Counted from the stretch's first letter, positions 1-17,884 are shown. The stretch: DNA of 64,000 nucleotides from Bacteroidales bacterium (GCA_021738485.1 JAIPBX010000002.1:2395-66394); one strand, 5' to 3'. Notes: generated by a model not told the origin, from the letters alone. Numbers and translations are program-made.

Positions 1-1023
1 AGTATTATCATTTCTTTCGCCACCTCCTTAAAACTACCCCTGTCTACCACTTATGTCACTTTTATGGTAGCAATGGGCACTTCGCTGTCTGACAAAGCCT
101 GGGGGCGCGAAAGTGCTGTGTACAGAATTTCAGGGGTCATAACAGTCATCGGGGGCTGGTTCTTTACCGCTGTGATAGCTTTTACTGCCGCTTTTATTTT
201 TGCCATGATTATCAGCTTTGGTGACATGATTGCCATTGTCCTGCTGATTGCTGTGGCTATCTTTTTTATCATCAAAACTCATGCGCTGCATAAAAAGCGA
301 GAAACAGAGAAAGAAGAACGCGAAAAGCAAAGAGAATACGACTCAAGGCTTTCCAATCGCCAGAATATCCTCATTCAATGCAGCAGAACAATTCTCGGAA
401 CACTCTCCAGCATCTCCAAAATCTACCAGGATATTATTGAACATGTTTCCAACGAAGACCGGCAAAATCTGAAAGCTACCGGCCGCGAAATGGATACGCT
501 GCGTAAGAGTGCCAAAGAACAAAAAGAGAATTTGTACTTTACCGTAAACAAGCTGGAAGAACACGATATTGACAGCGGACATAATTATGTGCAGGTAGTG
601 GATTATCTCAGGGAGCTTACGCGTTCTATTCGTACAATTTACGATCAAAGCTTTACTCATGTGGATAACAATCATAAAACCTTCACCAAAGAGCAGAGGG
701 AAGAGCTAACGAATCTCGCTAATAAATTGTCCGATTATCTCTTTGAGATATCATCAAATATCAAAAACCATGACCACGGCGACCTGGATGTGGCCAGTGA
801 TAAGAATGAGGAGCTGATAGAGCTGGTCGAATCTATGCGTAAATACCAAATAAAGCGTATTAAAAAGCAGAATGACAGTACCAAGCGAAGTATGCTTTAC
901 CTGTCTATCTTATTTGAAACCAAAAATATTCTCAAAGATACCTGGCATATCCTGAAAATCCAGCAGCGGTTCATACAGAGCGTTGATTATTATAAGGAAC
1001 TGGCGAATAATCATAATTATTAA
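1..1023 (+). CDS. PiT-family inorganic phosphate transporter, C-terminal part (5' end lies off the window) with a long cytoplasmic helical tail
   Basis: Frame 1 is open from base 1 (SIIISFATSLKLPLSTTYVTFMVAMGTSL), matching the PiT signature around P-x-STT-x...G. TM helices follow, then a charged helical region of about 240 aa. Stop at 1021-1023. Confidence 0.6.
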   Translation, partial: SIIISFATSLKLPLSTTYVTFMVAMGTSLSDKAWGRESAVYRISGVITVIGGWFFTAVIAFTAAFIFAMIISFGDMIAIVLLIAVAIFFIIKTHALHKKRETEKEEREKQREYDSRLSNRQNILIQCSRTILGTLSSISKIYQDIIEHVSNEDRQNLKATGREMDTLRKSAKEQKENLYFTVNKLEEHDIDSGHNYVQVVDYLRELTRSIRTIYDQSFTHVDNNHKTFTKEQREELTNLANKLSDYLFEISSNIKNHDHGDLDVASDKNEELIELVESMRKYQIKRIKKQNDSTKRSMLYLSILFETKNILKDTWHILKIQQRFIQSVDYYKELANNHNY

Positions 1024-1028: not shown

Positions 1029-2669
1029 TTATTTTTCATACACCTTAGCACCGCCGGAAAAGGTCTGTAATACTTCTGTGCCCGGAATCCGTTCCTCGTT
1101 CACTTTCATGATATCGCGGTCCAGTACAACAAAATCCGCTTTTTTGCCAGGTTCTATGCTTCCTTTTTCCTTTTCTTCAAAGCTTCCCTTCGCTGCCCAT
1201 AGGGTTATAGAACGAAGCGCATTTTTACGGCTAAGGGCGTTCTCCATTTGAAATCCATCTTCAGGATGCCCTTGCAAATTTTTTCTGACCACCGAAGTGT
1301 AAAATGTGTATACCGGGTTAATACCTTCTATGGGAAAATCGGTTCCATTCACCAGCCATCCGTTTTGTTTCATAAGCTCTTTAAGCGCATAGGCTCCCTG
1401 CATTCGCTTTTGGCCAATACGAGCGGGGGCCCATCCCATATCAGAGGTAGCATGCGTGGCTTGCATGGAAGGGATAATATTGTATTTCCCGAATTTATCG
1501 AAATCCTCCGGATGAACGATTTGGGCATGTTCGATACGCCAGCGGCGATCATTATCAGGCTTTAGATATTGGCTGTACTCATTGAGAAGAAATCGCACCG
1601 CCGAGTCACCAATGGCGTGGGTATTCACCTGGTAATTGTTGTTGTAAGCCAATTCAAACATATCACAATAGAAATCCGGTTTATTAACCAAAAGTCCATA
1701 GTTATCCGGGTCGTCTTCATAAGGCTCTAAAAGGCAAGCTCCCCTGGATCCCAAAGCTCCATCCGCATAGAGCTTTATCGAATGGATATGGAGCCGGGTG
1801 GTTTTGTAATGGCCTTTCTTCACGTACGCCTCAATATTCTCCTCGTTGGGGGTAAGCATCACATCCATGCGCATTTTGAGGTCACCGCCTTTTTGGAGGG
1901 AATCAATCACGTCTATCACAGGTTTTTCCAGTCCTGCATCCACCACCGAAGTGAGCCCCACGCTAAAACAATCGTTCTGAGCAGTAAGCAAAGCTTCTTC
2001 TTTTTCAGCCCTTTGCGGAGCGGGAATTTGATCCCGGAGACGATCGGCCGTTCCTTCGAGGAAAACACCGGTAAGTTTGCCGTCGTTGTAGATCGCTTCA
2101 TCTTTTGGAATATCACTTTCAGCCAGCTCCGCCCTTGCTATGGCTTCTTCATTAGCCACCACCGCATGTCCGTCTACCCTTGTCAGAACAACGGGGGTAT
2201 TCGGATACTGTTTATTCAGCTCCCGGTTGGTGGGGAAATCTTTAACGGGCCATTCATTCTGGTCCCACCCCCGACCCAAAAGCCATTCTGCCGGGTTATT
2301 TTTATGATGTTTCTGCAGAATATTCAATATCTCTTCGAAGGAGGAAGTACCTGTCAGATCGGCGTATCGCATTTTATTCACGCCATAGTGATAAAAATGA
2401 CAATGGCCGTCGATAAAGCCAGGATATACGGGTTTTCCTTCCATATCGATCACTTTGCCGGCGTGGTATCTTTGCTCTATCTCTTCATTTTTCCCGACTT
2501 CTATAAATCTGCCATCCTTGACGGCAAAGCTACTCTGGACAGAAAACCCGGCATCCACAGTATATATTCTGGCATTTTTTACAATTAAATCTGCTTTTTC
2601 CATTTTTTGACAAGATGTCGTTAATACAAAAACTACAAATAAGACATATAGCGGGTTCAATTTTTTCAT
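1029..2669 (-). CDS. Amidohydrolase-family (YtcJ-like, Amidohydro_3) metal-dependent hydrolase, lipoprotein
   Basis: 546-aa ORF. Lipoprotein-type signal (MKKLNPLYVLFVVFVLTTSC). GFIDGHCHF metal-binding His-x-His motif, later HAIGD and DGALGSRGA motifs typical of the family. Starts 11 nt after the upstream gene's stop. Confidence 0.8.
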   Translation of the reverse strand: MKKLNPLYVLFVVFVLTTSCQKMEKADLIVKNARIYTVDAGFSVQSSFAVKDGRFIEVGKNEEIEQRYHAGKVIDMEGKPVYPGFIDGHCHFYHYGVNKMRYADLTGTSSFEEILNILQKHHKNNPAEWLLGRGWDQNEWPVKDFPTNRELNKQYPNTPVVLTRVDGHAVVANEEAIARAELAESDIPKDEAIYNDGKLTGVFLEGTADRLRDQIPAPQRAEKEEALLTAQNDCFSVGLTSVVDAGLEKPVIDVIDSLQKGGDLKMRMDVMLTPNEENIEAYVKKGHYKTTRLHIHSIKLYADGALGSRGACLLEPYEDDPDNYGLLVNKPDFYCDMFELAYNNNYQVNTHAIGDSAVRFLLNEYSQYLKPDNDRRWRIEHAQIVHPEDFDKFGKYNIIPSMQATHATSDMGWAPARIGQKRMQGAYALKELMKQNGWLVNGTDFPIEGINPVYTFYTSVVRKNLQGHPEDGFQMENALSRKNALRSITLWAAKGSFEEKEKGSIEPGKKADFVVLDRDIMKVNEERIPGTEVLQTFSGGAKVYEK

Positions 2670-2680
2670 AGTATGAATAT

Positions 2681-4414
2681 TTAATTCATTACAATTACTT
2701 TTTTGTAAATATTTTTTCCGCTATCTGCAAGTGATAGTTGAACGATATAAATACCCCTCTCCCATTCTTTTGCGTCTAGTGAGTGTGTTTCTTTTTCAGG
2801 ATCAGGGTTTTCATTTTCAAAAATCAGTTTGCCACTTGAAGCTGAAAATACCCGTATGCTATCAACACGGGCTTCTCCTGTTTTAATGTGTAGAATATGC
2901 CTGACAGGATTAGGAAGTACCTTGAGAGAAGTTGTTTCTTCCTGCGGGGTTCCAATATTCCCTCTTATGCTGATATCCGTAACCTTCGGGAGATGGTCTG
3001 AAGCTTTACGGGTATCTTCAGCTACCAGGCCATACATATCAAGTCTTTGTTGTGACATGTTACCGGTTTCAAGAATAAAACTCTTTAGCACCTCACTTGA
3101 ACTGTTTGTCATAATCGAAAAATCAAGGCGGCCAGGCCAGTAGGAGCTTTCGTTATCCATCCAGGTCAAAGCATAAGGATTGTCGGAGTGGTATGAAATC
3201 ACATCTTTCAAAGCCGTGCCGTCCCAATCGGGGGCACCGCCTTCCCCAAAGGTAGAAGTGTTTATGATTTCACCGGTCAGCAGTGTTTCTAATTGCTGGG
3301 AGTCGCCAACAAGGTTCAGGTCGCCGGCAAGCATGATAGGCGTATCCTCCGGCAGTTCGATTCTTCCTCCCGTTTCCTTAGCTTCGTTAACAAATTCGAT
3401 AAAGGCATCGGCTTCCCGCTGACGGGCTTCATTTGCATCACAACAGCGAAAATGGGCGCCGGTTATCAGGAAATCATGCATAAAACGCTTATCAGGTAAA
3501 TCGATAAGTGCACCCGTCAGGCGCATATCATTATGAACATGCCAGCTATCACTGATGTCATATCGGGTGGTAATGATATTACCCTGATCCTTTTTTACAG
3601 CACTCCATCCCTCTTCATTGTCAAGGGGCAGGGCCTCATCCATAAATGATTCTACATCTGTAGCCTGTGTATCCCAGCATTCATTAAAAACAATCACATC
3701 CGGATTGATAGCCTGTAAAACACTTTCAATATGAGGTTGCTGAGCGGGTTTCATAATTCCGTCATGCAGAATATTGTAAGACATAACCCGCAGGTGGTTT
3801 TGCTCGGGCCGGCTAATATCAATGGGGTTAAAAGTATTGGTTAATTCGTCATCTATATGATAAGTAAAGGTCTCGCCCGCATTAGGAATAGCATCTTCGC
3901 CATTGTCACTTTTGAGTAAAAGGTTGAAATTGGCCCCTTCGAAAAGATCATCTGTTCCGTTGGGCTGGGCATCTCTCGAAATCATTACCTCAAATTCATC
4001 GGAGGCTACTGTCGGAAGGGCGCTAAAACCAATGTCATTGTGATAAATACGCTCTTTTGATTCGTTGTAATATCCATACCGGCTACCGAATTTCCAGCTC
4101 AATTCGGCTCCCAGATTTTCCACACTATAACCCGTCGAGGAATTTTGATCCGTATCGAGATAAAGTGTGAGGTCGTTGCCGCTATTTAAAAGCATTTCCT
4201 CTTCAAGGGTAAAATTGATATAGATATTGTTTTCGTCGTTGGTGACTTTCAGCGCTAACAATTCAATAGCTCCGCCGTCCTGCCGGGAGTCATCGATTTC
4301 TTCATAGTGTCTGTTCCAATCATCCGTTATTCCGTCAAAAAATATTGTATTCTCTTGTGCGAAACCTATTGCAGCCGAAGCTGCAAACAAAATGAGTAAA
4401 AATTTTTTTATCAT
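2681..4414 (-). CDS. Secreted endonuclease/exonuclease/phosphatase (EEP) family protein with N-terminal beta-sandwich-like region and T9SS C-terminal sorting domain
   Basis: Signal peptide. EEP motifs (VMSYNILHDG, VIVFNECW, LAGDLNLVGD, SDHLPKV). C-terminal LKVLPNPVRHILHIK...YIVQL...KKVIV resembles Por_Secre_tail. Its ATG overlaps the stop of the upstream ABC ATPase (ATGA at 4411-4414). Confidence 0.8.
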   Translation of the reverse strand: MIKKFLLILFAASAAIGFAQENTIFFDGITDDWNRHYEEIDDSRQDGGAIELLALKVTNDENNIYINFTLEEEMLLNSGNDLTLYLDTDQNSSTGYSVENLGAELSWKFGSRYGYYNESKERIYHNDIGFSALPTVASDEFEVMISRDAQPNGTDDLFEGANFNLLLKSDNGEDAIPNAGETFTYHIDDELTNTFNPIDISRPEQNHLRVMSYNILHDGIMKPAQQPHIESVLQAINPDVIVFNECWDTQATDVESFMDEALPLDNEEGWSAVKKDQGNIITTRYDISDSWHVHNDMRLTGALIDLPDKRFMHDFLITGAHFRCCDANEARQREADAFIEFVNEAKETGGRIELPEDTPIMLAGDLNLVGDSQQLETLLTGEIINTSTFGEGGAPDWDGTALKDVISYHSDNPYALTWMDNESSYWPGRLDFSIMTNSSSEVLKSFILETGNMSQQRLDMYGLVAEDTRKASDHLPKVTDISIRGNIGTPQEETTSLKVLPNPVRHILHIKTGEARVDSIRVFSASSGKLIFENENPDPEKETHSLDAKEWERGIYIVQLSLADSGKNIYKKVIVMN

Positions 4415-5415
4415 ACTTCGTTTTTTAAAAAGGATATCAGCGATTCGATACTGGTAAACTTAGTTTGCGTTTTATCCGGCAAAAGTAATAAAATATCATC
4501 TTTTGCCTTGATGACAACCCGGGGTTCCCCCACCCCTTTTTCTGTAGTGTTGAAACCGATACGGGATAAGGCTTTATTGAGCCAAAAAAGATACGGCTGG
4601 GGGCCATCAGTATATATCTCTGAACCGTTGCGGGTTTTTAACAGGAAAGTCCCGGTATATTTATCGAAATAAATATAATCTTTTTCAAAAAAATAATTCA
4701 AAACATTGTTAAGCACCAAATCTTCCGGCGAACCCGTATGTAGCTCCTTCCCTTTATCCATCAACCATATTTGATCGGCCACTTGCAGGGCCAGTTCCAC
4801 GTCATGCGTCGACATTAAAACGGATTTGCCCGTGTCTTTGGCAAGGCCTAATAAAATTTGCATTACTTCTATCTTGCTGGGAAAATCCAGGAAAGCGGTA
4901 GGTTCATCCAGGATGATTACCGGAGTATCCTGTGCCAGGGCCTTGGCAATCATTACTTTCTGTTTTTCACCGTCGGAAAGCTCATCAAAAAAGCGATGCT
5001 TCATCTCTTCAATTCCCACACGCTTCAGGGCTTGCACAACTATCTTCCGGTCATGCTGATCAAAACGGCCGATGATAGATGTGTAGGGATACCTGCCCAT
5101 ACCGACAATATCCAGGACGCGCGAATGGGGTATTTGAATACGATCAGTCAGCACCACACTCATCAGGTGCGAGAGTTTTTTAAAAGAGCGCTCCGTGCGG
5201 GGAGCGCCCATCAGGTATATTTCTCCTTCCAGGGCCTCCACAAATCCCGCCAGTGTTTTAATAAGCGTAGATTTCCCCGCTCCGTTGGGGCCGAGAATAC
5301 AATTCAGTTCCCCTTCGTGCAAAGCCAGGTGCAAACCCCGCTGAAGGTACTGGGGTTGCTTATTCGCTCGGTGGCCAATCGCCAGGTTTCTGGTTTGCAG
5401 CGTTGTGTTGTTCAT
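4411..5415 (-). CDS. ABC transporter ATP-binding protein, iron-siderophore/cobalamin (FecE/BtuD-like) type
   Basis: Walker A GPNGAGKST, signature LSDGEKQK, Walker B VIILDEPTAFLD, H-loop STHD. Has an extra C-terminal domain of about 90 aa. Overlaps the permease stop by 4 nt. Confidence 0.9.
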   Translation of the reverse strand: MNNTTLQTRNLAIGHRANKQPQYLQRGLHLALHEGELNCILGPNGAGKSTLIKTLAGFVEALEGEIYLMGAPRTERSFKKLSHLMSVVLTDRIQIPHSRVLDIVGMGRYPYTSIIGRFDQHDRKIVVQALKRVGIEEMKHRFFDELSDGEKQKVMIAKALAQDTPVIILDEPTAFLDFPSKIEVMQILLGLAKDTGKSVLMSTHDVELALQVADQIWLMDKGKELHTGSPEDLVLNNVLNYFFEKDYIYFDKYTGTFLLKTRNGSEIYTDGPQPYLFWLNKALSRIGFNTTEKGVGEPRVVIKAKDDILLLLPDKTQTKFTSIESLISFLKNEV

Positions 5416-6467
5416 ACCCCCCCTTTTTGTTTAAGAATTACCCATATCACTATGGGAGCCCCGATAATTGAGGTCACTGAATTGATAGGTAAAGCACCCT
5501 CAAATCCGGGCAACCGGGCAATGAAATTACACAGCAAAGCTACGGCTGCTCCGGTAAGAATCACTCCCGGCAATAATAACCTGTTATCCGAACTCATCAG
5601 CAGATTCCGGGTAATGTGAGGAACCGCCAGTCCCAGGAAGGCTATAGGTCCTGTGAAAGCGGTGGTTATCGCAACCAAAAACCCGGAGGCTAGAATCATC
5701 AGTACCCGGATCATTTTGACATTGGCACCCAGGTTCTGGGCATAGTTTTCTCCCAGCATATAGAGATTCATGGGTTTTATAAGAAAAAGCGACACAAGCA
5801 TCAGGAGCACCAGCGTCACAGCAAAGAAGGGTAATTCCGGCAGGGTGAGATTGGAAAAGCTACCCAATCCCCAAATGACATAGGATTTTAAATCGGCCGC
5901 AGTGCTATAGAATTTAAGAATCCCCACCAGCGAGGAACTTGCGTAGCCAATCATAATGCCGATGATAAGCAAAACGGTATTGCTTGACGTATAGCGTGCG
6001 GCCAGCATAATGAGTGCCAGCACACCCAGGGCACCTAAAAAGGCAGCTATGGTCACCCCTACATCCCCCAGTGCTCCGGAAGCTCCCATCGCAATCCCCG
6101 AGATACTGCTTACAATGAGCAATACCAGGGCTACTCCCAGGCTGGCCCCTGAGCTTATGCCCAGCACGGCCGGACCGGCAAGCGGATTTCGAAACAGGGT
6201 CTGCATTTGTAACCCGCTTACAGCCAAAGCCGATCCTGCAATAAGTGCGGTTATTGCCTGGGGAAGGCGTGATTTGATTACAATATTTTCCCAGGTGCTC
6301 ATTCCTGTCTCCCATCCCAGAAGGATTTTTCCTACTCCCTGAAAAGGTATACTAACGGAGCCGGTAGTCAGGTTAAGCAAAAACAGGAAGACGACCCCTA
6401 CCATTAGTATTGCCATCCACATGGCTGTGTGGGAACTTTTTTTTCTTTGCGCGGTAGCTATAGCCAT
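5412..6467 (-). CDS. FecCD/BtuC-family ABC permease
   Basis: Polytopic membrane protein with a FecCD-like sequence. I chose the start at MAIATAQRKK (6467), 5 nt downstream of the binding-protein stop. The longer ORF-track start (6659) would overlap the upstream gene by about 190 nt. Confidence 0.85.
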   Translation of the reverse strand: MAIATAQRKKSSHTAMWMAILMVGVVFLFLLNLTTGSVSIPFQGVGKILLGWETGMSTWENIVIKSRLPQAITALIAGSALAVSGLQMQTLFRNPLAGPAVLGISSGASLGVALVLLIVSSISGIAMGASGALGDVGVTIAAFLGALGVLALIMLAARYTSSNTVLLIIGIMIGYASSSLVGILKFYSTAADLKSYVIWGLGSFSNLTLPELPFFAVTLVLLMLVSLFLIKPMNLYMLGENYAQNLGANVKMIRVLMILASGFLVAITTAFTGPIAFLGLAVPHITRNLLMSSDNRLLLPGVILTGAAVALLCNFIARLPGFEGALPINSVTSIIGAPIVIWVILKQKGGV

Positions 6468-6471
6468 AGGA

Positions 6472-7602
6472 TTAATCCGATAAGGTTTTAAAATACTGCG
6501 GGTGATAGTCTTCCAGTAAATCTCCATGGAAGGCATGGATAAAATCAGCCAGAATAATGTCCGGTTCCAGGGCGCCCTTCTCGTAGTACGGAGTTTTGGT
6601 AACATTGCAGACCAGCACGTTTTTTTGTTGAAAGGCTTTAAAATCGCTGTATCTTTCATCTTCCGCTTTTAACTGGTCATAGCTGTATTTTTGCGGGCTT
6701 TTAACCAGTAATTTCCAGAAATCAGCCTCGGCAGCTTTGGAATACACCGTTTCAAAATCCAGGGAGAGGCTTGCCGTCGCGGTATTGTCTTCCCATAAAT
6801 AGCGGGCTCCTGCATCAGCAAAAAAATGCGCCATATAACTCTCCCCGCCGGGCATATGCCATGTTCCCCCGTAAGGTTTGGCCGAGAAAACCATTGGGCG
6901 GTCCTTAATGCTGTCTGTCAAAGCTTTAAGCTCCCGGTAATGGTTTTCCACCTTATGAAAATACTCCCATGCAATTTCCTGCTTATCATATAGAATGCCC
7001 ATAACTTTGATCCATTCGGCTCTACCCAGGGGATGTTGCTCCAAATAATCAGCATAGGGCAGAATAGTCATACCTAGGGCTTCCAGCTTTTCGTATGACT
7101 GACCTTTGAAGGGTGAAACCAAAATAATTTCAGGAGCCAGCTCAATGAGTATTTCATTGTAAAAATCACCATTACGCCCGACTTCCTTGACTTCACCTTT
7201 TTCCATTTTCGCCTTAAGGGTGGCATTATTCACCTGGTTTTTATTTCCTATCCCTTTAATAGAAGATAATTCCCGCAGCTTTTTTATTGAAGCGATTTGT
7301 GTGCCCGACATAGTAACCATTTCCCTGACGGGAGTCCTGATAATTTCGTAATCATCAACGGCTGAGGGAACTTCTTTATCGCGGGGTAGACATAACACTT
7401 TATGGTTTATTTTCTCCGGGCTCCAGGGATCGTGTAAGAAAATGACGGGATAATCTTTATATTGACCAAATGAGAACCGCGAAGCAAATTCAGGATAGTC
7501 TCGTTCAGTGAGAATTGAGGTTTGCTGATGCTCCTTTTTTCGGTTACACGCCAGCGAAAAAACGAGGAGAATCATTACTGCTGTAAAAATGTATCTTTTC
7601 AT
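6472..7602 (-). CDS. ABC transporter periplasmic substrate-binding lipoprotein (BtuF/Peripla_BP_2-like)
   Basis: I chose the start at MKRYIFTAVMILLVFSLAC (lipoprotein signal) at 7602. The ORF-track extension to 7779 runs through the riboswitch. First gene after a cobalamin riboswitch. Confidence 0.8.
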   Translation of the reverse strand: MKRYIFTAVMILLVFSLACNRKKEHQQTSILTERDYPEFASRFSFGQYKDYPVIFLHDPWSPEKINHKVLCLPRDKEVPSAVDDYEIIRTPVREMVTMSGTQIASIKKLRELSSIKGIGNKNQVNNATLKAKMEKGEVKEVGRNGDFYNEILIELAPEIILVSPFKGQSYEKLEALGMTILPYADYLEQHPLGRAEWIKVMGILYDKQEIAWEYFHKVENHYRELKALTDSIKDRPMVFSAKPYGGTWHMPGGESYMAHFFADAGARYLWEDNTATASLSLDFETVYSKAAEADFWKLLVKSPQKYSYDQLKAEDERYSDFKAFQQKNVLVCNVTKTPYYEKGALEPDIILADFIHAFHGDLLEDYHPQYFKTLSD

Positions 7603-7611
7603 AGTGTTTGC

Positions 7612-7770
7612 TTTTAGCCCGAAAGCATTAACACGCACCAGGTTTCCTGGCTTTCTCCTGCGCATTTTGCGCCTTCCTATAATAAGTGGCTTTATGCAAA
7701 ATACAGTAGCGGAGACTACAGTTGCGGGTACAGCTCCGGATTGACCGGATTCCCTATATGCGATGTTGCA
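7612..7770 (-). promoter_or_regulatory. Cobalamin (B12) riboswitch
   Basis: The minus strand reads ...ATAGGGAATCCGGTCAATCCGGAGCTGTACCCGCAACTGTAGTCTCC...AAGCCACTTATTATAGGAAGGCGCAAAATGCGC.... This contains the conserved core AGGGAA-n-GGT-n-AA-n-CC...CCCGCAACTGTA and the B12-box-like GCCACT...GGAAGGC. It sits directly 5' of the transporter operon. Confidence 0.85.
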
Positions 7771-7833
7771 AAATTGCAAATTCTTTTGTTCATAAACAAC
7801 GTCTTACGATTTAATTCTCTTATCAAAAAAGCC

Positions 7834-7868: not shown

Positions 7869-8129
7869 ATGCGAGGAACAATGAAACTAACTTTTTTTAA
7901 ATCGCAGGGTCCCCGGCAGTTTCATATTAAGCCCAGATACTACGACCCGGAAAAGGAAGCCCGCGAGCAGCGAAAATGGGAAAGAGAGCAACGGCTTTCG
8001 GGGTCGAGTGGATTGCGGGAGGAGATGGAGCGCAAATGGCATCGCAAAAGGCGAAAAAAATCGATGGGTGTAACTCTCGTCTATTTGGCACTCATTATTT
8101 TGCTATTGATGATTATTATCGGAAGTTAA
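7869..8129 (+). CDS. Small hypothetical protein: Arg/Lys/Glu-rich N-terminal part plus one C-terminal TM helix
   Basis: 86-aa ORF just downstream of promoter-like boxes. Ends in VTLVYLALIILLLMIIIGS. It stops 18 nt before the mutL start. No family recognised. Confidence 0.45.
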   Translation: MRGTMKLTFFKSQGPRQFHIKPRYYDPEKEAREQRKWEREQRLSGSSGLREEMERKWHRKRRKKSMGVTLVYLALIILLLMIIIGS

Positions 8130-8146
8130 ATCGAAAAAAAAGTACT

Positions 8147-9994
8147 ATGCCGGATATCATTCAGTTGCTGCCTGATAATGTAGCTAACCAGATAGCGGCT
8201 GGAGAAGTGATTCAACGACCCGCTTCGGTAGTAAAAGAATTGATGGAGAATGCGGTCGATTCAGGAGCCTCCGACATAAAACTAATTCTTAAAGATGCGG
8301 GAAAGACCCTGATAAAAGTAGTTGATAATGGCTGTGGAATGTCAGAAACTGATGCACGATTGAGCATCGAAAGGCATGCCACGTCCAAAATTTCACAAGC
8401 CGATGATCTTTTCTCCATCAAGACGATGGGATTTCGGGGGGAAGCGCTGGCATCTATTGCCGCCATTTCTCACATGGAAATCAAAACACGGCGGCGGGAA
8501 GAAGACTGGGGGGTGCGCCTCGTCATCGAAGGATCACATGTCAAAGAACAAGAACCTGACACGGTGAGCCAGGGGACTACCGTGAGCGTTAAAAACCTCT
8601 TCTTTAACGTTCCGGCGCGGAGAAATTTCCTGAAATCCGATAACGCCGAATATCGTCATATCATAGAACAATTTCAGCGGGTAGCTTTGGTTCATCCCCA
8701 ACTTCAATTCAGCCTTGTCAATAACGAAAGAACCATATATCAGCTCAATAAAGGCAATACCAAAAGCCGGATTGTGGAAATTTTCGGGGATTCATATAAA
8801 AAACGCCTCATCCCTGTAGAATCCGAAACCTCTTTAGCCAAAATCCATGGCTACATAGGCAAACCGGAATTTGCCAGGAAGAAGCGCGGGGAACAATATT
8901 TTTTTGTAAATGGCCGCTTTATTAAGCATCCATATTTTAACCATGCTATAATGGATGCTTTTGCCGACCTGCTGCCCGAAGGTTATTTTCCATCCTATTT
9001 TATTTATTTTGAACTTCCCTCAGAACGCATTGATGTAAATATTCATCCCACCAAAACTGAAGTAAAATTCAGGGATCAAAAAGCCCTCTACTCCATCATC
9101 GGTTCCATGGTAAAGCAAGGTATCGGGAAATTTAACCTATCCCCCAGTATCGACTTCGATGTGGACCCCTCGATGGATACGCGCCCCCCAAAAAATCCCT
9201 CTGAAGTCACTCCGCCCCAGATTCATATTGATCCGAATTACAACCCTTTCAAAAAACAAGGCACCCAACAGCAAATGGAGCAGCTAAAACATAAAAGAAA
9301 TGTTGAGAACTGGGATAAGCTGTATAAGCTCACACCCCGCGAGGGTGAGGAGCAGGAAAATTCCGCACAGCAACAGTCTGCTTTCACGGCCGGAAACATT
9401 ACTTCGGATATGGATAACCGCAACCAGCAGCAAAGCGGTTTTCTTCAGGCTATGGGCAAATTTATTATCTCCAACGTAAAATCAGGATTAATGGTCATTG
9501 ACCAGCATGCGGCCCATGAAAGAATCTTATATGAACGCTTCCTTCATCGCCTGGAGCGCAAGAAGCAAATAAGCCAACAACAATTATTTCCTAAGAATGT
9601 TACTTTTGCTGCCGGTGATGCGGAATTGGTACGGGAGCTTCTTAACGAATTACGCGCTGTGGGCTTTGATATAAAAAATTCAGCGGGAAATGAGTTTGTC
9701 ATTAACGGAATGCCCGCGGATATGGATAAAAACGAGGATGTGGAAGGCTTTCTCGATAGTATGATTGAGAGCTACCGGAACAATCAGATGAGAATCAAAA
9801 GCAGTAAAAACATTAATTTAGCCTTTGCAATGGCAAAAAATATGGCGGTACAACAAGGGAAAATGTTGACGCATGAGGAGATGCAAACAATTATTAACAG
9901 TTTGTTTGCTTGTGATGTTCCCGACTGGTCGCCTTCAGGAAAACTGATAGTCACTATAATAAAACCGGAAGAACTTGAGTCAAAATTTAAATAA
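8147..9994 (+). CDS. mutL: DNA mismatch repair protein MutL
   Basis: Starts MPDIIQLLPDNVANQIAAGEVIQRPASVVKELMENAVDSGA, the canonical MutL GHKL N-terminus. The C-terminal dimerisation region is present. The ORF-track start at 7976 is an upstream in-frame extension. Confidence 0.95.
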   Translation: MPDIIQLLPDNVANQIAAGEVIQRPASVVKELMENAVDSGASDIKLILKDAGKTLIKVVDNGCGMSETDARLSIERHATSKISQADDLFSIKTMGFRGEALASIAAISHMEIKTRRREEDWGVRLVIEGSHVKEQEPDTVSQGTTVSVKNLFFNVPARRNFLKSDNAEYRHIIEQFQRVALVHPQLQFSLVNNERTIYQLNKGNTKSRIVEIFGDSYKKRLIPVESETSLAKIHGYIGKPEFARKKRGEQYFFVNGRFIKHPYFNHAIMDAFADLLPEGYFPSYFIYFELPSERIDVNIHPTKTEVKFRDQKALYSIIGSMVKQGIGKFNLSPSIDFDVDPSMDTRPPKNPSEVTPPQIHIDPNYNPFKKQGTQQQMEQLKHKRNVENWDKLYKLTPREGEEQENSAQQQSAFTAGNITSDMDNRNQQQSGFLQAMGKFIISNVKSGLMVIDQHAAHERILYERFLHRLERKKQISQQQLFPKNVTFAAGDAELVRELLNELRAVGFDIKNSAGNEFVINGMPADMDKNEDVEGFLDSMIESYRNNQMRIKSSKNINLAFAMAKNMAVQQGKMLTHEEMQTIINSLFACDVPDWSPSGKLIVTIIKPEELESKFK

Positions 9995-10009
9995 AACATA
10001 AAATCTGGT

Positions 10010-10867
10010 ATGAACCAACAATCATTTCAGCCCGGTGGCTGGCGTATATTACCACCGGTTATTAAAAACTTGATAATAATTAATGTAATCTTCTTTCTGG
10101 CGACCATGACTTTTGAAGGAAGCTTTAACATTAATTTAACCGACCTGTTGGGGTTACATTATTTTGCCGCTGAAAAATTTCAACCTTATCAACTCATCAC
10201 TCACATGTTCATGCATGGGGGCTTTGCCCATATTCTCTTCAATATGTTTGCCCTGTGGATGTTAGGCCGCGTGCTGGAAAATGTGTGGGGGCCCCGGAAA
10301 TTTTTGTTGTACTACATTTTTACAGGCTTAGGGGCTGCCCTGGTTCATTATGTGGTATTTTATTTTCAAATGGCCCCGACGCTGGACCTGATGAATACGT
10401 TTTTGGATGATCCATCAATGAATACCCTTAACGCCCTGGTAAGTAACCATACTTTCCAAATCAACCAGTATTCGGGTGAGATATACCAGCAGTTCCAGGA
10501 ATTCCGCCAGAGCTATCAAACCCTGAAAGGGAATCCGGAAGATTTAGCAGCCATGCAAAATGCCATTGATTTTCTGACCCGGTATAAACAATATTATCTC
10601 AATCTGCCTAACGTGATCGGGGCTTCCGGCGCTGTATTCGGTGTGCTCCTGGCTTTTGGCATGCTCTTTCCCAATGCTGTATTGTATATTTATTTTGCAT
10701 TTCCGATTAAAGCGAAATATTTTGTCATTATTCTCGGTGCCATAGAACTTTTTTCGGGTTTTGTGAATACAGGCAGTAATGTGGCCCATTTTGCCCATTT
10801 AGGTGGAATGATATTTGGATTTTTGTTATTGAAATACTGGCAGATCAATAATAAATTGTACGTTTGA
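10010..10867 (+). CDS. Rhomboid-family intramembrane serine protease
   Basis: HILFNMFALW (H-x3-N), catalytic GASGAVFGVL, and catalytic His in AHFAHLGGMIFG. Confidence 0.9.
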   Translation: MNQQSFQPGGWRILPPVIKNLIIINVIFFLATMTFEGSFNINLTDLLGLHYFAAEKFQPYQLITHMFMHGGFAHILFNMFALWMLGRVLENVWGPRKFLLYYIFTGLGAALVHYVVFYFQMAPTLDLMNTFLDDPSMNTLNALVSNHTFQINQYSGEIYQQFQEFRQSYQTLKGNPEDLAAMQNAIDFLTRYKQYYLNLPNVIGASGAVFGVLLAFGMLFPNAVLYIYFAFPIKAKYFVIILGAIELFSGFVNTGSNVAHFAHLGGMIFGFLLLKYWQINNKLYV

Positions 10868-10868
10868 T

Positions 10869-11801
10869 ATGATGCATAGTTATAACAGATCACCACTTGA
10901 TAACGCTGCGGCTTTTTTTAAGAGTAATTCGCCGCTGGCCCGGCTTATTCTTATAAATGTTATCGTATTTGTGGCGATTAACATTATTAATCTTTTCCTG
11001 TGGCTTTTCGAAATTGACGGTCAGTCAAAGATAAGTGGTATCTCAATAGTGACAGAATGGCTTTCAGTCCCCTCTGATTTAGGACAATTATTCATCCGGC
11101 CATGGACATTGGTTACCTATATGTTTCTCCAGGAAGGATTTTTTCATATTCTATTTAATATGATAATCCTGTATTTTGGTGGAAGGATTTTTACGGAATA
11201 TCTGAGCAACAAAAAGTTAGTCAAAACCTATATTTTCGGAGGTTTGATAGGAGCTGCTTTTTTCATCCTGGCATTCAATATATTTCCGGTATTTTCGGAT
11301 GCTCAGTCACGAGCCCTGGCACTGGGATCATCTGCTTCGGTGTTAGCGGTCCTTATTGCCATTGCCACTTATATTCCGAATTATTCGGTGATGCTGATTT
11401 TTCTGGGACGTGTAAAACTCAAGTACATCGCTATTTTCTTTGTCGTAATAGATGTGTTCAGTATCCAACAGGGAAATGCCGGCGGACATATAGCTCACCT
11501 GGGAGGTGCTTTTTGGGGGTTCCTCTATGCTAATAATTTAAAAAAAGGACGCGAACTGGGCACATTCTTTGACCGGATAAAATGGCCCAATTTTTCAAGA
11601 AAATCAAAATCTTCCAAAAAAAGCCATTTTGAAGATGTGTATGTAAACAGCCGGCCCATGACTGACGAAGAATACAACGCCAAAAAACGGGAACGGCAAA
11701 AACAAATAGATAAAATATTGGATAAAATCTCCCGCTCGGGTTATGAAAGCCTGACGAAGGAAGAAAAAGAGATCCTGTTCAGAAATAGCAATAATGATTA
11801 A
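10869..11801 (+). CDS. Rhomboid-family protein (paralog) with charged C-terminal extension
   Basis: HILFNMIILY, Ser motif GSSASVLAVL (G-x-S-A rather than G-x-S-G), His in AHLGGAFWGF, and a hydrophilic tail of about 90 aa. Starts 1 nt after the previous stop. Confidence 0.85.
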   Translation: MMHSYNRSPLDNAAAFFKSNSPLARLILINVIVFVAINIINLFLWLFEIDGQSKISGISIVTEWLSVPSDLGQLFIRPWTLVTYMFLQEGFFHILFNMIILYFGGRIFTEYLSNKKLVKTYIFGGLIGAAFFILAFNIFPVFSDAQSRALALGSSASVLAVLIAIATYIPNYSVMLIFLGRVKLKYIAIFFVVIDVFSIQQGNAGGHIAHLGGAFWGFLYANNLKKGRELGTFFDRIKWPNFSRKSKSSKKSHFEDVYVNSRPMTDEEYNAKKRERQKQIDKILDKISRSGYESLTKEEKEILFRNSNND

Positions 11802-12950
11802 ATGAGGGTAAGAAGGTTGTATGAGTATAAAACCGAAGGCAATAGCTTTTGGATGAAGCTTCTGTTAGCTATCAATCTTGTTACATTGATAGCCTTGTTG
11901 TTTTCTTACCTTAGCTATCATACAAGTCCGGCAGAAATATTTCTTCCGGTAATTTTTGGCATTACTTATCCAATCTGGTTTTTGTTGAATTTCCTTTTTA
12001 TCTTGCTATGGCTTTTCCTTAAAAAATGGTGGCTGGTATTCTCCCTGGTGGCCATCGTACTGGGTTGGTCTCATGTGAGTACGGTCTATCAATCGGGCGA
12101 CAAGCAGGATTCTCCTGGAGACGGCTTGCAATTGATGAGCTATAATGTACGGTTTTTCGATGTTTATAACTCGAAAAAGGATACCACCCACGATAGTCAT
12201 CATAAAATATACAGATTTCTGGAAGAGCAAAAAGCCGATATACTTTGTTTTCAGGAATTTTATAATGAAGATACCCCGGATTTTGCCGTAATGGATTCAT
12301 TATTGGCCATTCAACCAGCCAAAAACTACCATATCGACTATTTCAAGACCCGTCATAAATACTACCACTGGGGGCTGGCTACATTCTCAAAATACCCCAT
12401 TATCAACCGCCAAAGACACCAGTTTCGCAATAGCTTCGGTAATTACTTTATCTATACCGATATAGTATACGGGCGGGATACAATGCGAGTATTTAATGTG
12501 CATCTTGAATCCTGGCATTTTGAGCAGGAGGATTATCACTTTATCAGTAATTTTTCTGATTCCACACAGCAGGAACAACCCATCAAAGCAGGACTGAAAA
12601 ACATCTACTGGAAAATGCGGAGTGCTTCTATGAAAAGAGCTGTTCAGGTAAAGGAATTACAAAACATTATAACATCCTCCCCTTATCCTGTATTGGTATG
12701 TGGGGATTTTAATTCACCCCCCGTCTCCTTTGTATATAATCAGATGACTACCATCCTGCAGGATGCCTTCACCCATAAGGGAAGCCATTTCGGGACTACT
12801 TATAATGGCCTTTTGCCGGGGGCTCGTATCGATTACATTTTTTATGATGAACATTTTCACGCCGAATCGTTTAAAACTTTCAAAAAGAATTATTCAGATC
12901 ATTATCCTATTACTGTAAATTTGAGTACCCATACCGATGGTAAAGAGTAA
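11802..12950 (+). CDS. Membrane-anchored endonuclease/exonuclease/phosphatase (EEP) family protein
   Basis: N-terminal TM helices followed by EEP motifs (LMSYNVRFFD, ILCFQEF, NVHLES, VCGDFNS, IDYIF, SDHYPI). The ATG directly abuts the rhomboid stop. An internal start at 11853 is also possible. Confidence 0.8.
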   Translation: MRVRRLYEYKTEGNSFWMKLLLAINLVTLIALLFSYLSYHTSPAEIFLPVIFGITYPIWFLLNFLFILLWLFLKKWWLVFSLVAIVLGWSHVSTVYQSGDKQDSPGDGLQLMSYNVRFFDVYNSKKDTTHDSHHKIYRFLEEQKADILCFQEFYNEDTPDFAVMDSLLAIQPAKNYHIDYFKTRHKYYHWGLATFSKYPIINRQRHQFRNSFGNYFIYTDIVYGRDTMRVFNVHLESWHFEQEDYHFISNFSDSTQQEQPIKAGLKNIYWKMRSASMKRAVQVKELQNIITSSPYPVLVCGDFNSPPVSFVYNQMTTILQDAFTHKGSHFGTTYNGLLPGARIDYIFYDEHFHAESFKTFKKNYSDHYPITVNLSTHTDGKE

Positions 12951-14010
12951 TAATAAGGTGAAAGATGAAATCGTAAAGCAAGTTTTGGTCGGAGTTAATA
13001 GCTTCTTTACCCTATTGCTGTTGATTAGCTACTTGGCTTACTATGTTCCTCCTTCACCCGGATGGTTTTTCGGAATCCCGGGACTCGCTTATCCGGTCTT
13101 TTTGGTAATAAATTTCTTGTTTTTAATCGTGTGGATTATCCTCAGGAGCAAGTATCTCATTATTTCTCTTTTTGGCATTCTAATAGGCTGGAATCATGTT
13201 GAAAGACATATAAGTATAAGCTCCGACAACCCTGAATCACCCCCGGAAGGGCTGAAAATTATAAGCTATAATATACAGACCAATAAATATACTCCTCAGA
13301 AAGAACAATTAATAGAGCGAGTGGCCGACTATCTGCAGGAAAAGCAACCCCGAATTGCTTGCCTGCAGGAATGTTTTCTTTCCAGGAAACAGCTTGACGA
13401 TTTTTCGAAGAAGTCAGGATTCAAGCTGCGAGAAGCCCCCACCCCTTCCCAGGCTCATGGGTTGTATACTTTCACTGATCTCCCCGTTATCAAAACGGGG
13501 ATACTTTCCAGTAACAACGCTAAATTTGCGGTCTATCATCAGGTGACGTATAATAGCGACACGGTGAGGATATATAACACGCAGCTTGCTTCCATCAAAC
13601 TGCAAAAAGAGAAAAATCTTTTCGATCAGGAAGAAAGAGATTGGAAGTCGCAAGAATCGCAGGAGCAAATTACTAGTATGTTCAAAAAATTCAATAAAGC
13701 TTACAATCAGCGCACTAATGAAGTCAGGCTGCTGAAAAAACATATCGCCGAATGTAAATATCCGGTAATTCTCTGCGGGGATTTTAACGACACACCCTTG
13801 TCTTATACCTACCAAAACCTCAATCAACATCTCACGGATCCTTTTCCCCAGTTTGGCAGGGGATTCGGAAACACTCACAACGAAAACCTCCCTCCCATTC
13901 GTATTGACTACATCCTGCATGATGACATGTATCAAACCCAATGGTATAAAATAGATGAGGCTGAATTTTCCGACCATTTTCCTGTCAGTGCTGTGATAAC
14001 GAAAAAATAG
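12937..14010 (+). CDS. Membrane-anchored EEP family protein (paralog of the previous gene)
   Basis: Same architecture as the previous gene: TM helices, IISYNIQ, IACLQEC, LCGDFNDTP, IDYIL, SDHFPV. Overlaps the previous gene by 14 nt. Confidence 0.8.
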   Translation: MVKSNNKVKDEIVKQVLVGVNSFFTLLLLISYLAYYVPPSPGWFFGIPGLAYPVFLVINFLFLIVWIILRSKYLIISLFGILIGWNHVERHISISSDNPESPPEGLKIISYNIQTNKYTPQKEQLIERVADYLQEKQPRIACLQECFLSRKQLDDFSKKSGFKLREAPTPSQAHGLYTFTDLPVIKTGILSSNNAKFAVYHQVTYNSDTVRIYNTQLASIKLQKEKNLFDQEERDWKSQESQEQITSMFKKFNKAYNQRTNEVRLLKKHIAECKYPVILCGDFNDTPLSYTYQNLNQHLTDPFPQFGRGFGNTHNENLPPIRIDYILHDDMYQTQWYKIDEAEFSDHFPVSAVITKK

Positions 14011-17855: not shown

Positions 17856-17884
17856 CACATTTTTCATATATTGAAAAATGTGTC
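17854..17884 (+). terminator. Perfect 13-bp stem hairpin overlapping the stop codon of the sugar transferase
   Basis: GACACATTTTTCA-tatat-TGAAAAATGTGTC. No clear downstream T-run. A 233-nt gap follows before the next gene. Confidence 0.4.

What the first reader, a model, noticed from the sequence alone, without database searches (positions are those of the whole stretch)
1029..7770. B12-riboswitch operon extends beyond BtuFCD into a T9SS-secreted EEP enzyme and a lipoprotein amidohydrolase
A clear cobalamin riboswitch precedes genes for a binding protein, a permease and an ATPase. The ATPase stop then overlaps the start of an EEP-fold phosphoesterase (ATGA at 4411-4414) that has a signal peptide and a T9SS sorting domain. 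Eleven nt further on is a lipoprotein Amidohydro_3 hydrolase. I saw no terminator-like hairpin between these genes. Corrinoid remodelling requires cleaving an amide bond (the CbiZ reaction) and the phosphodiester of the nucleotide loop. An amidohydrolase and a phosphoesterase under B12 control, both exported, could therefore be a cell-surface salvage or remodelling module, non-homologous to CbiZ, that converts foreign corrinoids before uptake. No BtuB-type TonB-dependent receptor is present in the operon.
Basis: inference. Interest (0 to 1): 0.68.

Follow-up and report, generated by a model that had tools for sequence, protein, structure and literature searches.

The report
B12 importer operon with passenger hydrolases
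A vitamin-B12-sensing RNA switch controls an ordinary B12 import operon that, in one group of uncultured Bacteroidales, runs on into a secreted phosphoesterase and a lipoprotein amidohydrolase; comparison with about 170 related loci suggests these two genes are neighbours by descent, not a B12-remodelling machine.

Summary
On the minus strand there is a cobalamin riboswitch (7793-7620), followed by btuF, btuC and btuD. The btuD stop overlaps the start (ATGA) of a gene for a T9SS-secreted EEP phosphoesterase, and a YtcJ-type lipoprotein amidohydrolase starts 11 nt after that gene ends. There is no room for a terminator, so co-transcription is likely.

The arrangement riboswitch-btuFCD-EEP is conserved in one clade of uncultured Bacteroidales (9 loci with the riboswitch). 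The mutL block next door is conserved in the same loci, so this is inherited synteny.

Outside that clade the links break down:
- 49 EEP-family loci with at least 3 kb of upstream sequence have no btuFCD, and none of the other 72 EEP-anchored loci has a riboswitch.
- Orthologues of the amidohydrolase (about 55% identity) stand alone, divergent from the same mutL block, in other Bacteroidota.
- EEP-amidohydrolase pairs occur without btuFCD or a riboswitch.
- Related riboswitch-controlled btuFCD operons are followed by canonical cobamide genes instead.
- Neither enzyme resembles CbiZ or CbiR, and their catalytic residues are the same in linked and unlinked members.

The operon extension is real. 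The corrinoid-remodelling interpretation has no support. No RNA data exist to test co-regulation.

The parts
7620..7793 (-). Cobalamin riboswitch aptamer (RF00174)
   Evidence: 61.9 bits, E 6.4e-13, model positions 1-189; found again with my own model R1.
7603..7619 (-). 17-nt linker between the aptamer and the btuF start codon. It is too short for an intrinsic terminator, which implies control of translation initiation or Rho-dependent control.
   Evidence: Sequence read; folding 7645-7585 gives no notable hairpin (z-score -0.08); the ATGCTTTCGGG element just before the start codon is invariant in 6 loci.
6472..7602 (-). btuF-like periplasmic corrinoid-binding lipoprotein (376 aa)
   Evidence: Peripla_BP_2, 82 bits; lipobox SLAC.
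5412..6467 (-). btuC-like FecCD permease (351 aa)
   Evidence: FecCD, 234 bits; the best NCBIfam model is BtuC (202 bits, below the equivalog cut-off of 334).
4411..5415 (-). btuD-like ABC ATPase (334 aa) with a conserved C-terminal extension of about 80 aa
   Evidence: ABC_tran, 102 bits; the extension is conserved in alignment A4.
4411..4414 (-). ATGA overlap of the btuD stop codon and the EEP start codon
   Evidence: sequence read. The same 4-nt overlap occurs in L002, L005 and L006, L001 and L167.
4480..4487 (-). TACTTTTG, a match to the Bacteroidota -7 promoter consensus TAnnTTTG, 66 nt upstream of the EEP start. It is a candidate internal promoter only.
   Evidence: The motif count in the window is no higher than chance (62 found, 65 expected).
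4358..4414 (-). EEP protein: Sec signal peptide (aa 1-19, cleavage before Q20)
   Evidence: sequence. Q20 is nearly invariant in 90 homologues.
3800..4357 (-). EEP protein: N-terminal CBM9/DOMON-like beta-sandwich (aa 20-205)
   Evidence: model pLDDT 91; the best fold matches are the ethylbenzene dehydrogenase gamma subunit (2ivf_C) and CBM9 (1i82), both weak (E about 1e-3, TM about 0.4).
2960..3799 (-). EEP protein: endonuclease/exonuclease/phosphatase catalytic domain (aa 206-485)
   Evidence: PF03372; model pLDDT 92.7; fold matches to CNOT6L, nocturnin, TDP2, sphingomyelinase and DNase I. N214, E245, H321, D365, N367, D431, D473 and H474 are invariant.
2681..2923 (-). EEP protein: T9SS type A C-terminal sorting domain (aa 498-577) plus the stop codon
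   Evidence: PF18962, 33.4 bits (cut-off 27). TIGR04183, 26.3 bits (cut-off 23).
2670..2680 (-). 11-nt spacer between the EEP stop codon and the amidohydrolase start codon
1029..2669 (-). YtcJ-type Amidohydro_3 lipoprotein (546 aa)
   Evidence: PF07969, 286 bits; the nearest solved structures are 3IGH and 3ICJ, both uncharacterised; the lipoprotein signal is conserved in orthologues.
7976..14010 (+). Divergent syntenic block (context, not part of the operon): mutL, two rhomboid genes and two EEP paralogues
   Evidence: The same block flanks the amidohydrolase orthologue in distant Bacteroidota.

Best explanation
This is a cobalamin-riboswitch-controlled btuFCD operon, encoding the inner-membrane corrinoid importer. 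In one clade of uncultured Bacteroidales it lies head-to-tail with two genes unrelated to B12: a T9SS-secreted CBM9-like/EEP phosphoesterase and a YtcJ-type lipoprotein amidohydrolase.

How it probably works. When B12 is bound, the aptamer ends only 17 nt before the btuF start codon, so it probably blocks translation initiation; this is inferred, and no terminator is present. The downstream genes are linked by overlapping or nearly abutting stop and start codons. Read-through and translational coupling therefore probably carry some B12-dependent repression into the EEP and amidohydrolase genes (inferred, not shown).

Why the two distal genes are there. They are neighbours by descent, not by function. 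The amidohydrolase is the long-standing neighbour of the mutL block in Bacteroidota. The riboswitch-btuFCD unit, with the EEP, occupies the space between mutL and the amidohydrolase in this lineage.

The substrates of both enzymes remain unknown. Their conserved catalytic sets are the same in B12-linked and B12-unlinked members, which points to a general extracytoplasmic hydrolytic role rather than corrinoid remodelling.
For: Shown:
- Anatomy of the operon.
- The clade with riboswitch-btuFCD-EEP comprises the window, L001, L002, L005, L006, L008, L167, L168 and L169. All have mutL divergent upstream. In a neighbour-joining tree of the EEP family these loci form a single clade.
- 49 other EEP loci with at least 3 kb upstream have no btuFCD. 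Their neighbours are variable housekeeping genes. The covariance-model search finds riboswitches only in L001, L002, L005, L006 and L008 among the 80 EEP-anchored loci.
- Amidohydrolase orthologues (55-58% identity) lie divergent from DUF6580 - 100-aa gene - mutL - rhomboid - rhomboid - EEP paralogue in L081, L082, L083/84, L170 and L171. No btuFCD, EEP or riboswitch is present there.
- Variants of the same locus exist. L086/L089 have btuFCD-amidohydrolase without an EEP. L153, L157, L158 and L164 have an Omp28-like T9SS protein in place of the EEP. L147 has an IS element between btuD and the amidohydrolase. L072, L075 and L079 have EEP-amidohydrolase without btuFCD.
- Related btuFCD loci with riboswitches are followed by PduO-type adenosyltransferase, CbiC/methylase, CbiK or aminotransferase genes.
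- The invariant residues of the EEP family are shared by linked and unlinked members.
Against: - Within the clade the btuD-EEP junction is kept very tight: a 4-nt overlap in the window, L001, L002, L005, L006 and L167, and a gap of at most 20 nt in L004, L168 and L169. It persists even where the amidohydrolase has been lost and the downstream context has changed. Selection for co-expression could explain this.
- Two unrelated T9SS cargo proteins occupy the same slot behind btuD in different lineages.
- Accessory genes of unknown function in Bacteroides B12 loci have repeatedly turned out to be B12-related (PMC8941943, PMC12751083).
- Lack of a detectable riboswitch does not prove lack of B12 regulation. 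B. thetaiotaomicron operon 4 has no identifiable riboswitch but is regulated like the riboswitch-controlled operons (PMC12751083).
- There are no expression data.
Confidence: 0.65

Rival explanations
1. The EEP cleaves the phosphodiester of the nucleotide loop and the amidohydrolase cleaves the aminopropanol amide of foreign cobamides outside the cytoplasm. The resulting cobinamide or cobyric acid is then imported by BtuFCD. This would be an exported analogue of CbiR and CbiZ that is not homologous to either.
For: - The genes are arranged for co-transcription behind a real riboswitch.
- Both proteins carry export signals.
- The arrangement is conserved in a clade.
- There is a precedent for a phosphodiesterase (CbiR) and an amidohydrolase (CbiZ) initiating remodelling, and for such genes lying next to transporters (PMC7733943).
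Against: - Both families occur mostly without any B12 context.
- The amidohydrolase is dispensable in the operon (absent in L004 and L169).
- EEP-amidohydrolase pairs exist without btuFCD or a riboswitch.
- Linked members show no clade-specific change in catalytic residues.
- CbiZ and CbiR act in the cytoplasm, where the rebuilding enzymes are (PMC7733943).
- The window contains no cobamide salvage genes, though 64 kb says little about the whole genome.
- The amidohydrolase is probably periplasmic, not surface-exposed (inference from its sequence).
Confidence: 0.07
2. An accessory role in B12 acquisition that is not remodelling. The T9SS-secreted protein encoded behind btuD (the EEP here, an Omp28-like protein in rumen-type relatives) helps to capture or release corrinoids at the cell surface. 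It would be analogous to the surface binders BtuG, BtuH, BtuJ and BtuK of Bacteroides. The amidohydrolase is a bystander.
For: - The btuD-EEP junction is tightly conserved, even where the amidohydrolase is lost.
- Two unrelated T9SS cargo proteins occupy the same slot.
- The N-domain is a ligand-binding CBM9/DOMON-like fold; some DOMON relatives bind haem.
- Bacteroides B12 loci hold many surface binders that were first annotated as unknown (PMC8941943, PMC12751083).
Against: - The same EEP architecture, with the same invariant residues, is found in about 270 genomes without B12 linkage.
- The invariant residues of the N-domain are acidic (D27, D42, D87, D89, E142, D174) plus W33. They look like a Ca2+ or carbohydrate site, and no invariant His, Met or Lys is present.
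- The fold match is weak (TM about 0.4).
- The Omp28-like variant loci have no detectable riboswitch.
Confidence: 0.13
3. The distal genes form their own transcription unit. An internal promoter in the 3' end of btuD drives the EEP and amidohydrolase genes, and they are essentially not B12-regulated. On this reading the 'operon extension' is only apparent.
For: - A TAnnTTTG match lies 66 nt upstream of the EEP start codon.
- In L072, L075 and L079 the EEP-amidohydrolase pair starts its own unit behind a divergent gene.
- In the standalone arrangement (amidohydrolase divergent from the mutL block) the amidohydrolase has its own promoter region.
- Internal promoters are documented in B. thetaiotaomicron B12 operons (PMC12751083).
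- The riboswitch appears to act on btuF translation, which need not silence distal genes.
Against: - The promoter motif occurs no more often than chance.
- The ATGA overlap and the lack of any intergenic space or terminator make read-through from the upstream promoter very likely as well.
- An internal promoter and read-through are not mutually exclusive.
Confidence: 0.15

Closest known systems
Cobalamin-riboswitch-controlled btuFCD operons of Bacteroidota (for example the B. thetaiotaomicron B12 uptake operons)
   Same: An RF00174 aptamer lies directly upstream of Peripla_BP_2, FecCD and ABC ATPase genes. Extra genes of unknown function are attached. Internal promoters are possible.
   Different: There is no btuB or btuG in the operon, and none of the known accessory binders (BtuG, BtuH/DUF4465, BtuJ, BtuK). 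The attached genes are two hydrolases, one of them a T9SS cargo protein.
CbiZ (adenosylcobinamide amidohydrolase) and CbiR (cobamide phosphodiesterase, AP endonuclease 2 superfamily), PMC7733943
   Same: Some cbiZ and cbiR genes lie next to transporter genes.
   Different: There is no homology. The window proteins are Amidohydro_3 (YtcJ-type) and EEP fold, not the CbiZ family or the TIM-barrel AP endonuclease 2 fold. CbiZ and CbiR are cytoplasmic and 80% of cbiR homologues are adjacent to cobamide biosynthesis genes. The window proteins are exported and their families mostly lack any B12 context.
YtcJ-like metal-dependent amidohydrolases (Pfam PF07969; PDB 3IGH and 3ICJ, uncharacterised)
   Same: Full-length Amidohydro_3 match (286 bits), an HxH motif (GHCHF), and 55-58% identity to orthologues across Bacteroidota.
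   Different: The window protein carries a lipoprotein signal peptide. Here it sits at the end of a riboswitch-controlled operon, whereas most orthologues examined stand alone.
EEP superfamily enzymes (DNase I, sphingomyelinase C, CCR4/nocturnin, TDP2)
   Same: Same fold and the full catalytic set (Asn, Glu, His, Asp/Asn, Asp, Asp-His).
   Different: No subfamily is clearly closest: TM-scores normalised to the target length are 0.5-0.69 and identity is 12-17%. The protein has an N-terminal CBM9/DOMON-like domain, a conserved HFRCC motif and a T9SS sorting domain.

Membership tests
Cobalamin riboswitch (Rfam RF00174) | Covariance-model score above the curated gathering score over the full model | tested here: met
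   61.9 bits against a cut-off of 31.5, model positions 1-189, E 6.4e-13.
Cobalamin riboswitch (Rfam RF00174) | Located in the 5' leader of a B12-related gene | tested here: met
   the aptamer ends 17 nt before the btuF-like start codon.
Cobalamin riboswitch (Rfam RF00174) | Corrinoid binding and ligand-dependent repression | not testable with these tools
   No RNA runs are available.
BtuFCD type II ABC corrinoid importer | Peripla_BP_2 binding protein, FecCD permease and ABC ATPase encoded together | tested here: met
BtuFCD type II ABC corrinoid importer | Corrinoid specificity rather than siderophore or haem specificity | tested here: inconclusive
   The best NCBIfam model for the permease is BtuC, but the score is below the equivalog cut-off (202 vs 334 bits). 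Support for B12 comes from the riboswitch, and from riboswitches and cobamide genes next to relatives.
CbiZ (adenosylcobinamide amidohydrolase) | Membership of the CbiZ protein family | tested here: not met
   The Pfam scan of the amidohydrolase returns only Amidohydro_3 and Amidohydro_1. NCBIfam gives no CbiZ hit.
CbiR (cobamide phosphodiesterase) | AP endonuclease 2 / xylose-isomerase-like TIM barrel (PMC7733943) | tested here: not met
   The EEP protein matches PF03372 and folds as an EEP alpha/beta sandwich.
CbiZ/CbiR-type remodelling genes | Genomic association with cobamide biosynthesis or salvage genes across lineages (80% of cbiR homologues, PMC7733943) | tested here: not met
   The EEP and amidohydrolase families are mostly in unrelated contexts.
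EEP superfamily (PF03372) | Pfam match above cut-off, the fold, and the conserved catalytic residues | tested here: met
   38.9 bits, cut-off 24.5; fold; invariant N214, E245, H321, D365, N367, D431, D473, H474.
T9SS type A cargo | N-terminal Sec signal peptide plus a C-terminal Por_Secre_tail domain | tested here: met
   Two more T9SS cargo genes lie in the window.
YtcJ-like Amidohydro_3 | Full-length PF07969 match and the metal-binding HxH motif | tested here: met
   (286 bits, profile positions 1-472 of 472). GHCHF is visible in the sequence.
Bacteroides surface B12-binding accessory proteins (BtuG, BtuH/DUF4465, BtuJ, BtuK) | Homology to one of these families | tested here: not met
   The EEP protein has no Pfam match other than EEP and the C-terminal sorting domain. 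The fold search of the N-domain returns weak CBM9/DOMON-like hits only.
Bacteroides surface B12-binding accessory proteins (BtuG, BtuH/DUF4465, BtuJ, BtuK) | Direct B12 binding | not testable with these tools
   Needs a binding assay.

The most novel reading that the evidence does not exclude
In this clade of uncultured Bacteroidales a T9SS-secreted CBM9/DOMON-like EEP phosphoesterase has been recruited into the B12 limitation response, with or without the periplasmic amidohydrolase. It would act on corrinoids or corrinoid-carrying material outside the cytoplasm, which would make it the first enzymatic (rather than binding) accessory component of a Bacteroidota B12 uptake locus. In sister lineages the slot behind btuD is filled by an unrelated T9SS cargo protein (Omp28-like), which would then mark a general 'secreted helper' position in these operons.
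Probability: 0.12. Interest if true: 0.7.

Novelty: new variant of a known kind. Interest (0 to 1): 0.3.

Why it matters
If the two hydrolases really processed corrinoids outside the cell, this would be a third, non-homologous route of cobamide remodelling and the first extracytoplasmic one. That would matter for how B12 analogues are exchanged in microbial communities. The comparative evidence instead points to a riboswitch-controlled transporter operon lying next to older resident genes. The practical lesson is that sitting behind a riboswitch does not by itself mean sharing its function. If read-through occurs, these genes may still become B12-repressed as a side effect.

Tried and rejected
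- RNA evidence. Only DNA metagenome runs hold this sequence (lake water, brine), and no RNA run could be listed. Co-transcription could not be tested.
- Refining the EEP function by fold. The hits are spread evenly over CCR4/nocturnin, TDP2, sphingomyelinase and DNase I, so no subfamily could be assigned. The pentatricopeptide-repeat hits from the PDB profile search have no aligned stretch passing the threshold and were ignored as artefacts.
- Refining the amidohydrolase function. The nearest solved structures are uncharacterised. All NCBIfam hits are partial and far below their cut-offs.
- DUF6580. This membrane protein occupies the btuFCD position in distant genomes, and I asked whether it is a hidden B12 transporter of the BtuM or ECF S-component type. 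It has no PDB match by sequence or profile, no NCBIfam hit, no riboswitch and no literature. The question stays open.
- Riboswitches in L044, L086, L140, L153 and L004. None was found with Rfam at the gathering score, with a permissive Rfam scan of the L086 leader, or with my own model at E up to 10. In L004 only 360 nt upstream are available.
- Sigma-70-type promoter scan. It is not informative for Bacteroidota. The TAnnTTTG scan is not above chance.
- Literature link between Omp28 and B12: none found.

Full report
**1. What is in the sequence**

Everything lies on the minus strand. Rfam finds a single family in the whole 64 kb window: a full-length cobalamin riboswitch aptamer at 7793..7620 (61.9 bits, gathering score 31.5, E 6.4e-13). 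The btuF-like gene starts 17 nt after the aptamer ends.

| Gene | Coordinates (minus strand) | Length | Main evidence |
|---|---|---|---|
| btuF-like lipoprotein | 7602..6472 | 376 aa | Peripla_BP_2, lipobox SLAC |
| FecCD permease | 6467..5412 | 351 aa | FecCD, 234 bits |
| ABC ATPase | 5415..4411 | 334 aa | ABC_tran, 102 bits |
| EEP protein | 4414..2681 | 577 aa | Sec signal peptide, unassigned N-domain, Exo_endo_phos, Por_Secre_tail |
| Amidohydrolase | 2669..1029 | 546 aa | Amidohydro_3, 286 bits, lipoprotein signal |

The btuD stop and the EEP start overlap as ATGA (4414-4411). The EEP stop and the amidohydrolase start are 11 nt apart. btuC and btuD also overlap by 4 nt, and btuF and btuC are 4 nt apart.

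No terminator-like site lies at any junction; the weak candidates on this strand are all inside coding sequence. The unit ends against a convergent membrane-protein gene (64..1023 +). Upstream, transcribed divergently, lie mutL, two rhomboid genes and two more EEP paralogues, followed by uvrB.

No TonB-dependent receptor and no cobamide salvage gene was found among the 40 window proteins scanned, which are all but eight short ORFs of the 48 called. The only adjustment is that the aptamer starts at 7793, not 7770.

**2. How the switch probably acts**

The 17-nt linker leaves no room for an intrinsic terminator, and folding the region shows nothing unusual (z-score -0.08). The element ATGCTTTCGGG just before the start codon is invariant in six related loci. 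I infer control of btuF translation initiation, or Rho-dependent polarity. Any effect on the distal genes would spread by translational coupling and read-through. This is inference. No RNA data exist for this sequence: only DNA metagenomes from lake water and brine hold it.

**3. The two distal proteins**

The EEP protein.
- The full-length model is confident (pLDDT 92.7).
- The catalytic domain matches CNOT6L, nocturnin, TDP2, sphingomyelinase C and DNase I about equally (TM-score normalised to the target 0.5-0.69, identity 12-17%). The fold says 'active EEP phosphoesterase' but does not point to a substrate.
- N214, E245, H321, D365, N367, D431, D473 and H474 are invariant in 90 homologues.
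- The N-domain (aa 20-205, pLDDT 91) is a beta-sandwich. Its best, weak matches are the haem-binding gamma subunit of ethylbenzene dehydrogenase and CBM9 (E about 1e-3, TM about 0.4).
- The invariant residues of the N-domain are acidic plus one Trp, with no invariant His, Met or Lys. That looks more like a Ca2+ or carbohydrate site than a tetrapyrrole site (inference).

The amidohydrolase.
- It is a YtcJ-type enzyme with the HxH motif.
- The nearest solved structures (3IGH, 3ICJ) are uncharacterised.
- More than 8000 database proteins match it, and many Bacteroidota proteins are about 55% identical over the full length.
- Its lipoprotein signal is conserved in orthologues whatever their genomic context.
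- The residues after the lipid-modified Cys (QKMEKAD) are not the acidic export signal known for surface lipoproteins of Bacteroidota. A periplasmic location is therefore more likely than the cell surface (inference from general knowledge).

Neither protein belongs to the CbiZ family or to the AP endonuclease 2 superfamily of CbiR, the two known initiators of cobamide remodelling (PMC7733943).

**4. Is the arrangement conserved?**

*Anchoring on the EEP family.* A scan of one genome per species found 278 loci; the best 80 were fetched, and three further loci (L167-L169) came from metagenome contigs.

- btuF, btuC and btuD lie directly upstream of the EEP in L001, L002, L004-L006, L008, L044 and L167-L169. 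L003 is cut off by the contig end. L140 was found through the ATPase search.
- A riboswitch is present in the window, L001, L002, L005, L006, L008, L167, L168 and L169.
- These nine loci form one clade in an EEP tree, with EEP identity down to 43%. All also have mutL divergent upstream.
- The amidohydrolase follows the EEP in eight of the nine. It is absent in L169, and also in L004.
- The btuD-EEP junction is a 4-nt overlap in the window, L001, L002, L005, L006 and L167.
- In contrast, 49 other EEP loci with at least 3 kb of upstream sequence have no btuFCD.
- Neighbours of the EEP in those other lineages differ from lineage to lineage: ArsC-like, alpha/beta-hydrolase, LpxB, amidase, GldC, RsmB and others.
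- My covariance model finds no riboswitch in any of the other 72 EEP-anchored loci, apart from one chance-level hit far from the gene.

*Anchoring on the amidohydrolase.* Seven distant orthologue contexts were examined.

- In five (L081, L082, L083/84, L170, L171) the gene stands alone. It is divergent from the block DUF6580 - 100-aa gene - mutL - rhomboid - rhomboid - EEP paralogue - (uvrB). That is the same block that flanks the riboswitch in the window. No riboswitch is present there.
- One context (L085) is unrelated.
- One (L086) has mutL | btuFCD - amidohydrolase with no EEP and no detectable riboswitch.

*Anchoring on the ATPase.* 80 metagenome loci with 35-51% identity were fetched.

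- Many have riboswitch hits beside btuFCD, so the transporter family is genuinely B12-related.
- The genes that follow the ATPase in these loci are a PduO-type adenosyltransferase, CbiC/methylase, CbiK, an aminotransferase or radical-SAM genes.
- The amidohydrolase appears only in loci that share the mutL synteny (L089, L140, L153, L157, L158, L164) and in L147, where an IS element separates it from btuD.
- In L153, L157, L158 and L164 the slot between btuD and the amidohydrolase is filled by a different T9SS cargo protein, Omp28-like.
- L044 and L140 have btuFCD-EEP-amidohydrolase but no detectable riboswitch.
- L072, L075 and L079 have EEP-amidohydrolase followed by two further genes, behind a divergent gene, with no btuFCD and no riboswitch.

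**5. Interpretation**

The simplest account of these variants is a single old chromosomal neighbourhood. Its fixed points are the mutL block and the amidohydrolase, and the space between them has been remodelled over time:

| Content between the mutL block and the amidohydrolase | Loci |
|---|---|
| DUF6580 | L081, L082, L083/84, L170, L171 |
| btuFCD | L086/L089 |
| btuFCD plus the EEP | window clade, L044, L140 |
| btuFCD plus an Omp28-like T9SS protein | L153, L157, L158, L164 |

The riboswitch is detectable only in the window's clade.

- The amidohydrolase is therefore downstream of a B12 riboswitch because of where it has always been. It is equally conserved (51-58% identity) whether linked to btuFCD or not.
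- The EEP is a widespread secreted enzyme whose link to btuFCD is confined to this neighbourhood. Its catalytic and N-domain signatures do not differ between linked and unlinked members.
- The five genes are very probably co-transcribed, so the distal two may well be partly B12-repressed. Nothing indicates that they act on corrinoids.

**6. What keeps the question slightly open**

- The btuD-EEP junction is kept tight even where the amidohydrolase was lost and the downstream genes changed (L004, L169).
- Two unrelated T9SS cargo proteins occupy the same position.
- Bacteroides B12 loci have a record of 'unknown' accessory genes turning out to be surface B12 binders (PMC8941943, PMC12751083, PMC13616437). 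None of those known so far is an enzyme.
- One B. thetaiotaomicron B12 operon lacks a recognisable riboswitch yet is regulated like the riboswitch-controlled operons, and internal promoters occur in these operons (PMC12751083). A negative riboswitch search, or a tight junction, is therefore not decisive in either direction.

I put about 0.12 on a genuine accessory role in B12 acquisition for the secreted protein, and less (0.07) on the specific two-enzyme remodelling scheme.

**7. Verdict**

The corrinoid-remodelling function is not supported and several lines of evidence count against it.

In terms of novelty this is a known kind of system, a riboswitch-controlled btuFCD operon, in a variant arrangement with two passenger hydrolases. 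Interest is modest. The useful experiments are transcript mapping with and without B12, and simple substrate and binding assays on the two proteins.

Noticed in passing
window 4411-4650 (-), aa about 255-334 of the ATPase: The BtuD-like ATPase has a conserved C-terminal extension of about 80 aa with no Pfam match. It is shared by relatives in L001-L008, L044 and L086, and by many ATPase-anchored loci of 335-350 aa. It is absent from the rumen-type relatives L153, L157, L158 and L164 (247-253 aa).
   Followed up: partly
L153:8740-10398 (+); also L157, L158, L164: A different T9SS cargo protein (Omp28-like PF11551 plus Por_Secre_tail, about 550 aa) sits between btuD and the amidohydrolase, exactly where the EEP sits in the window. 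The junctions are 3-45 nt and no riboswitch is detectable.
   Followed up: partly
L171:5322-5876 (-), L081:6327-6881 (-), L083, L170: In distant Bacteroidota a DUF6580 membrane protein (184 aa, motif IPHWPNFTPIAAMALFGG) occupies the position between mutL and the amidohydrolase that riboswitch-btuFCD-EEP occupies in the window. It has no PDB, NCBIfam or literature match and no riboswitch.
   Followed up: partly
window 11802-12950 (+) and 12937-14010 (+): Two tandem EEP paralogues (382 and 357 aa) follow mutL and the two rhomboid genes. One such EEP (annotated DUF8431 plus Exo_endo_phos) is part of the conserved mutL block in distant Bacteroidota.
   Followed up: no
window 43243-44889 (-) and 33177-34964 (+): Two more T9SS cargo genes: a subtilase S8 and a beta-helix protein, both with Por_Secre_tail. 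The organism therefore clearly uses a T9SS.
   Followed up: no
window 1029-2669 (-): Public gene calls start this amidohydrolase at Met23 (524 aa, P0121). That start removes the lipoprotein signal peptide, which is conserved in orthologues.
   Followed up: yes
L147:9374-10132 (-): An IS element (rve integrase) is inserted between btuD and the amidohydrolase. This is direct evidence that the intergenic slot is a site of rearrangement.
   Followed up: no
L124:9020-11511 (+); L118:2586-3611 (+): In other btuFCD loci, one with a riboswitch hit nearby (L124), the ATPase is followed by a CN_hydrolase (489 aa) plus a radical-SAM protein, or by the radical-SAM protein alone. These hydrolase and radical-SAM genes may be better candidates for new cobamide-related enzymes than the genes in the window.
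   Followed up: no
window 16668-32102 (+): A large polysaccharide biosynthesis cluster: a sugar transferase fused to a receiver domain, Wzy-like protein, several GT2 and GT4 glycosyltransferases and an acetyltransferase.
   Followed up: no
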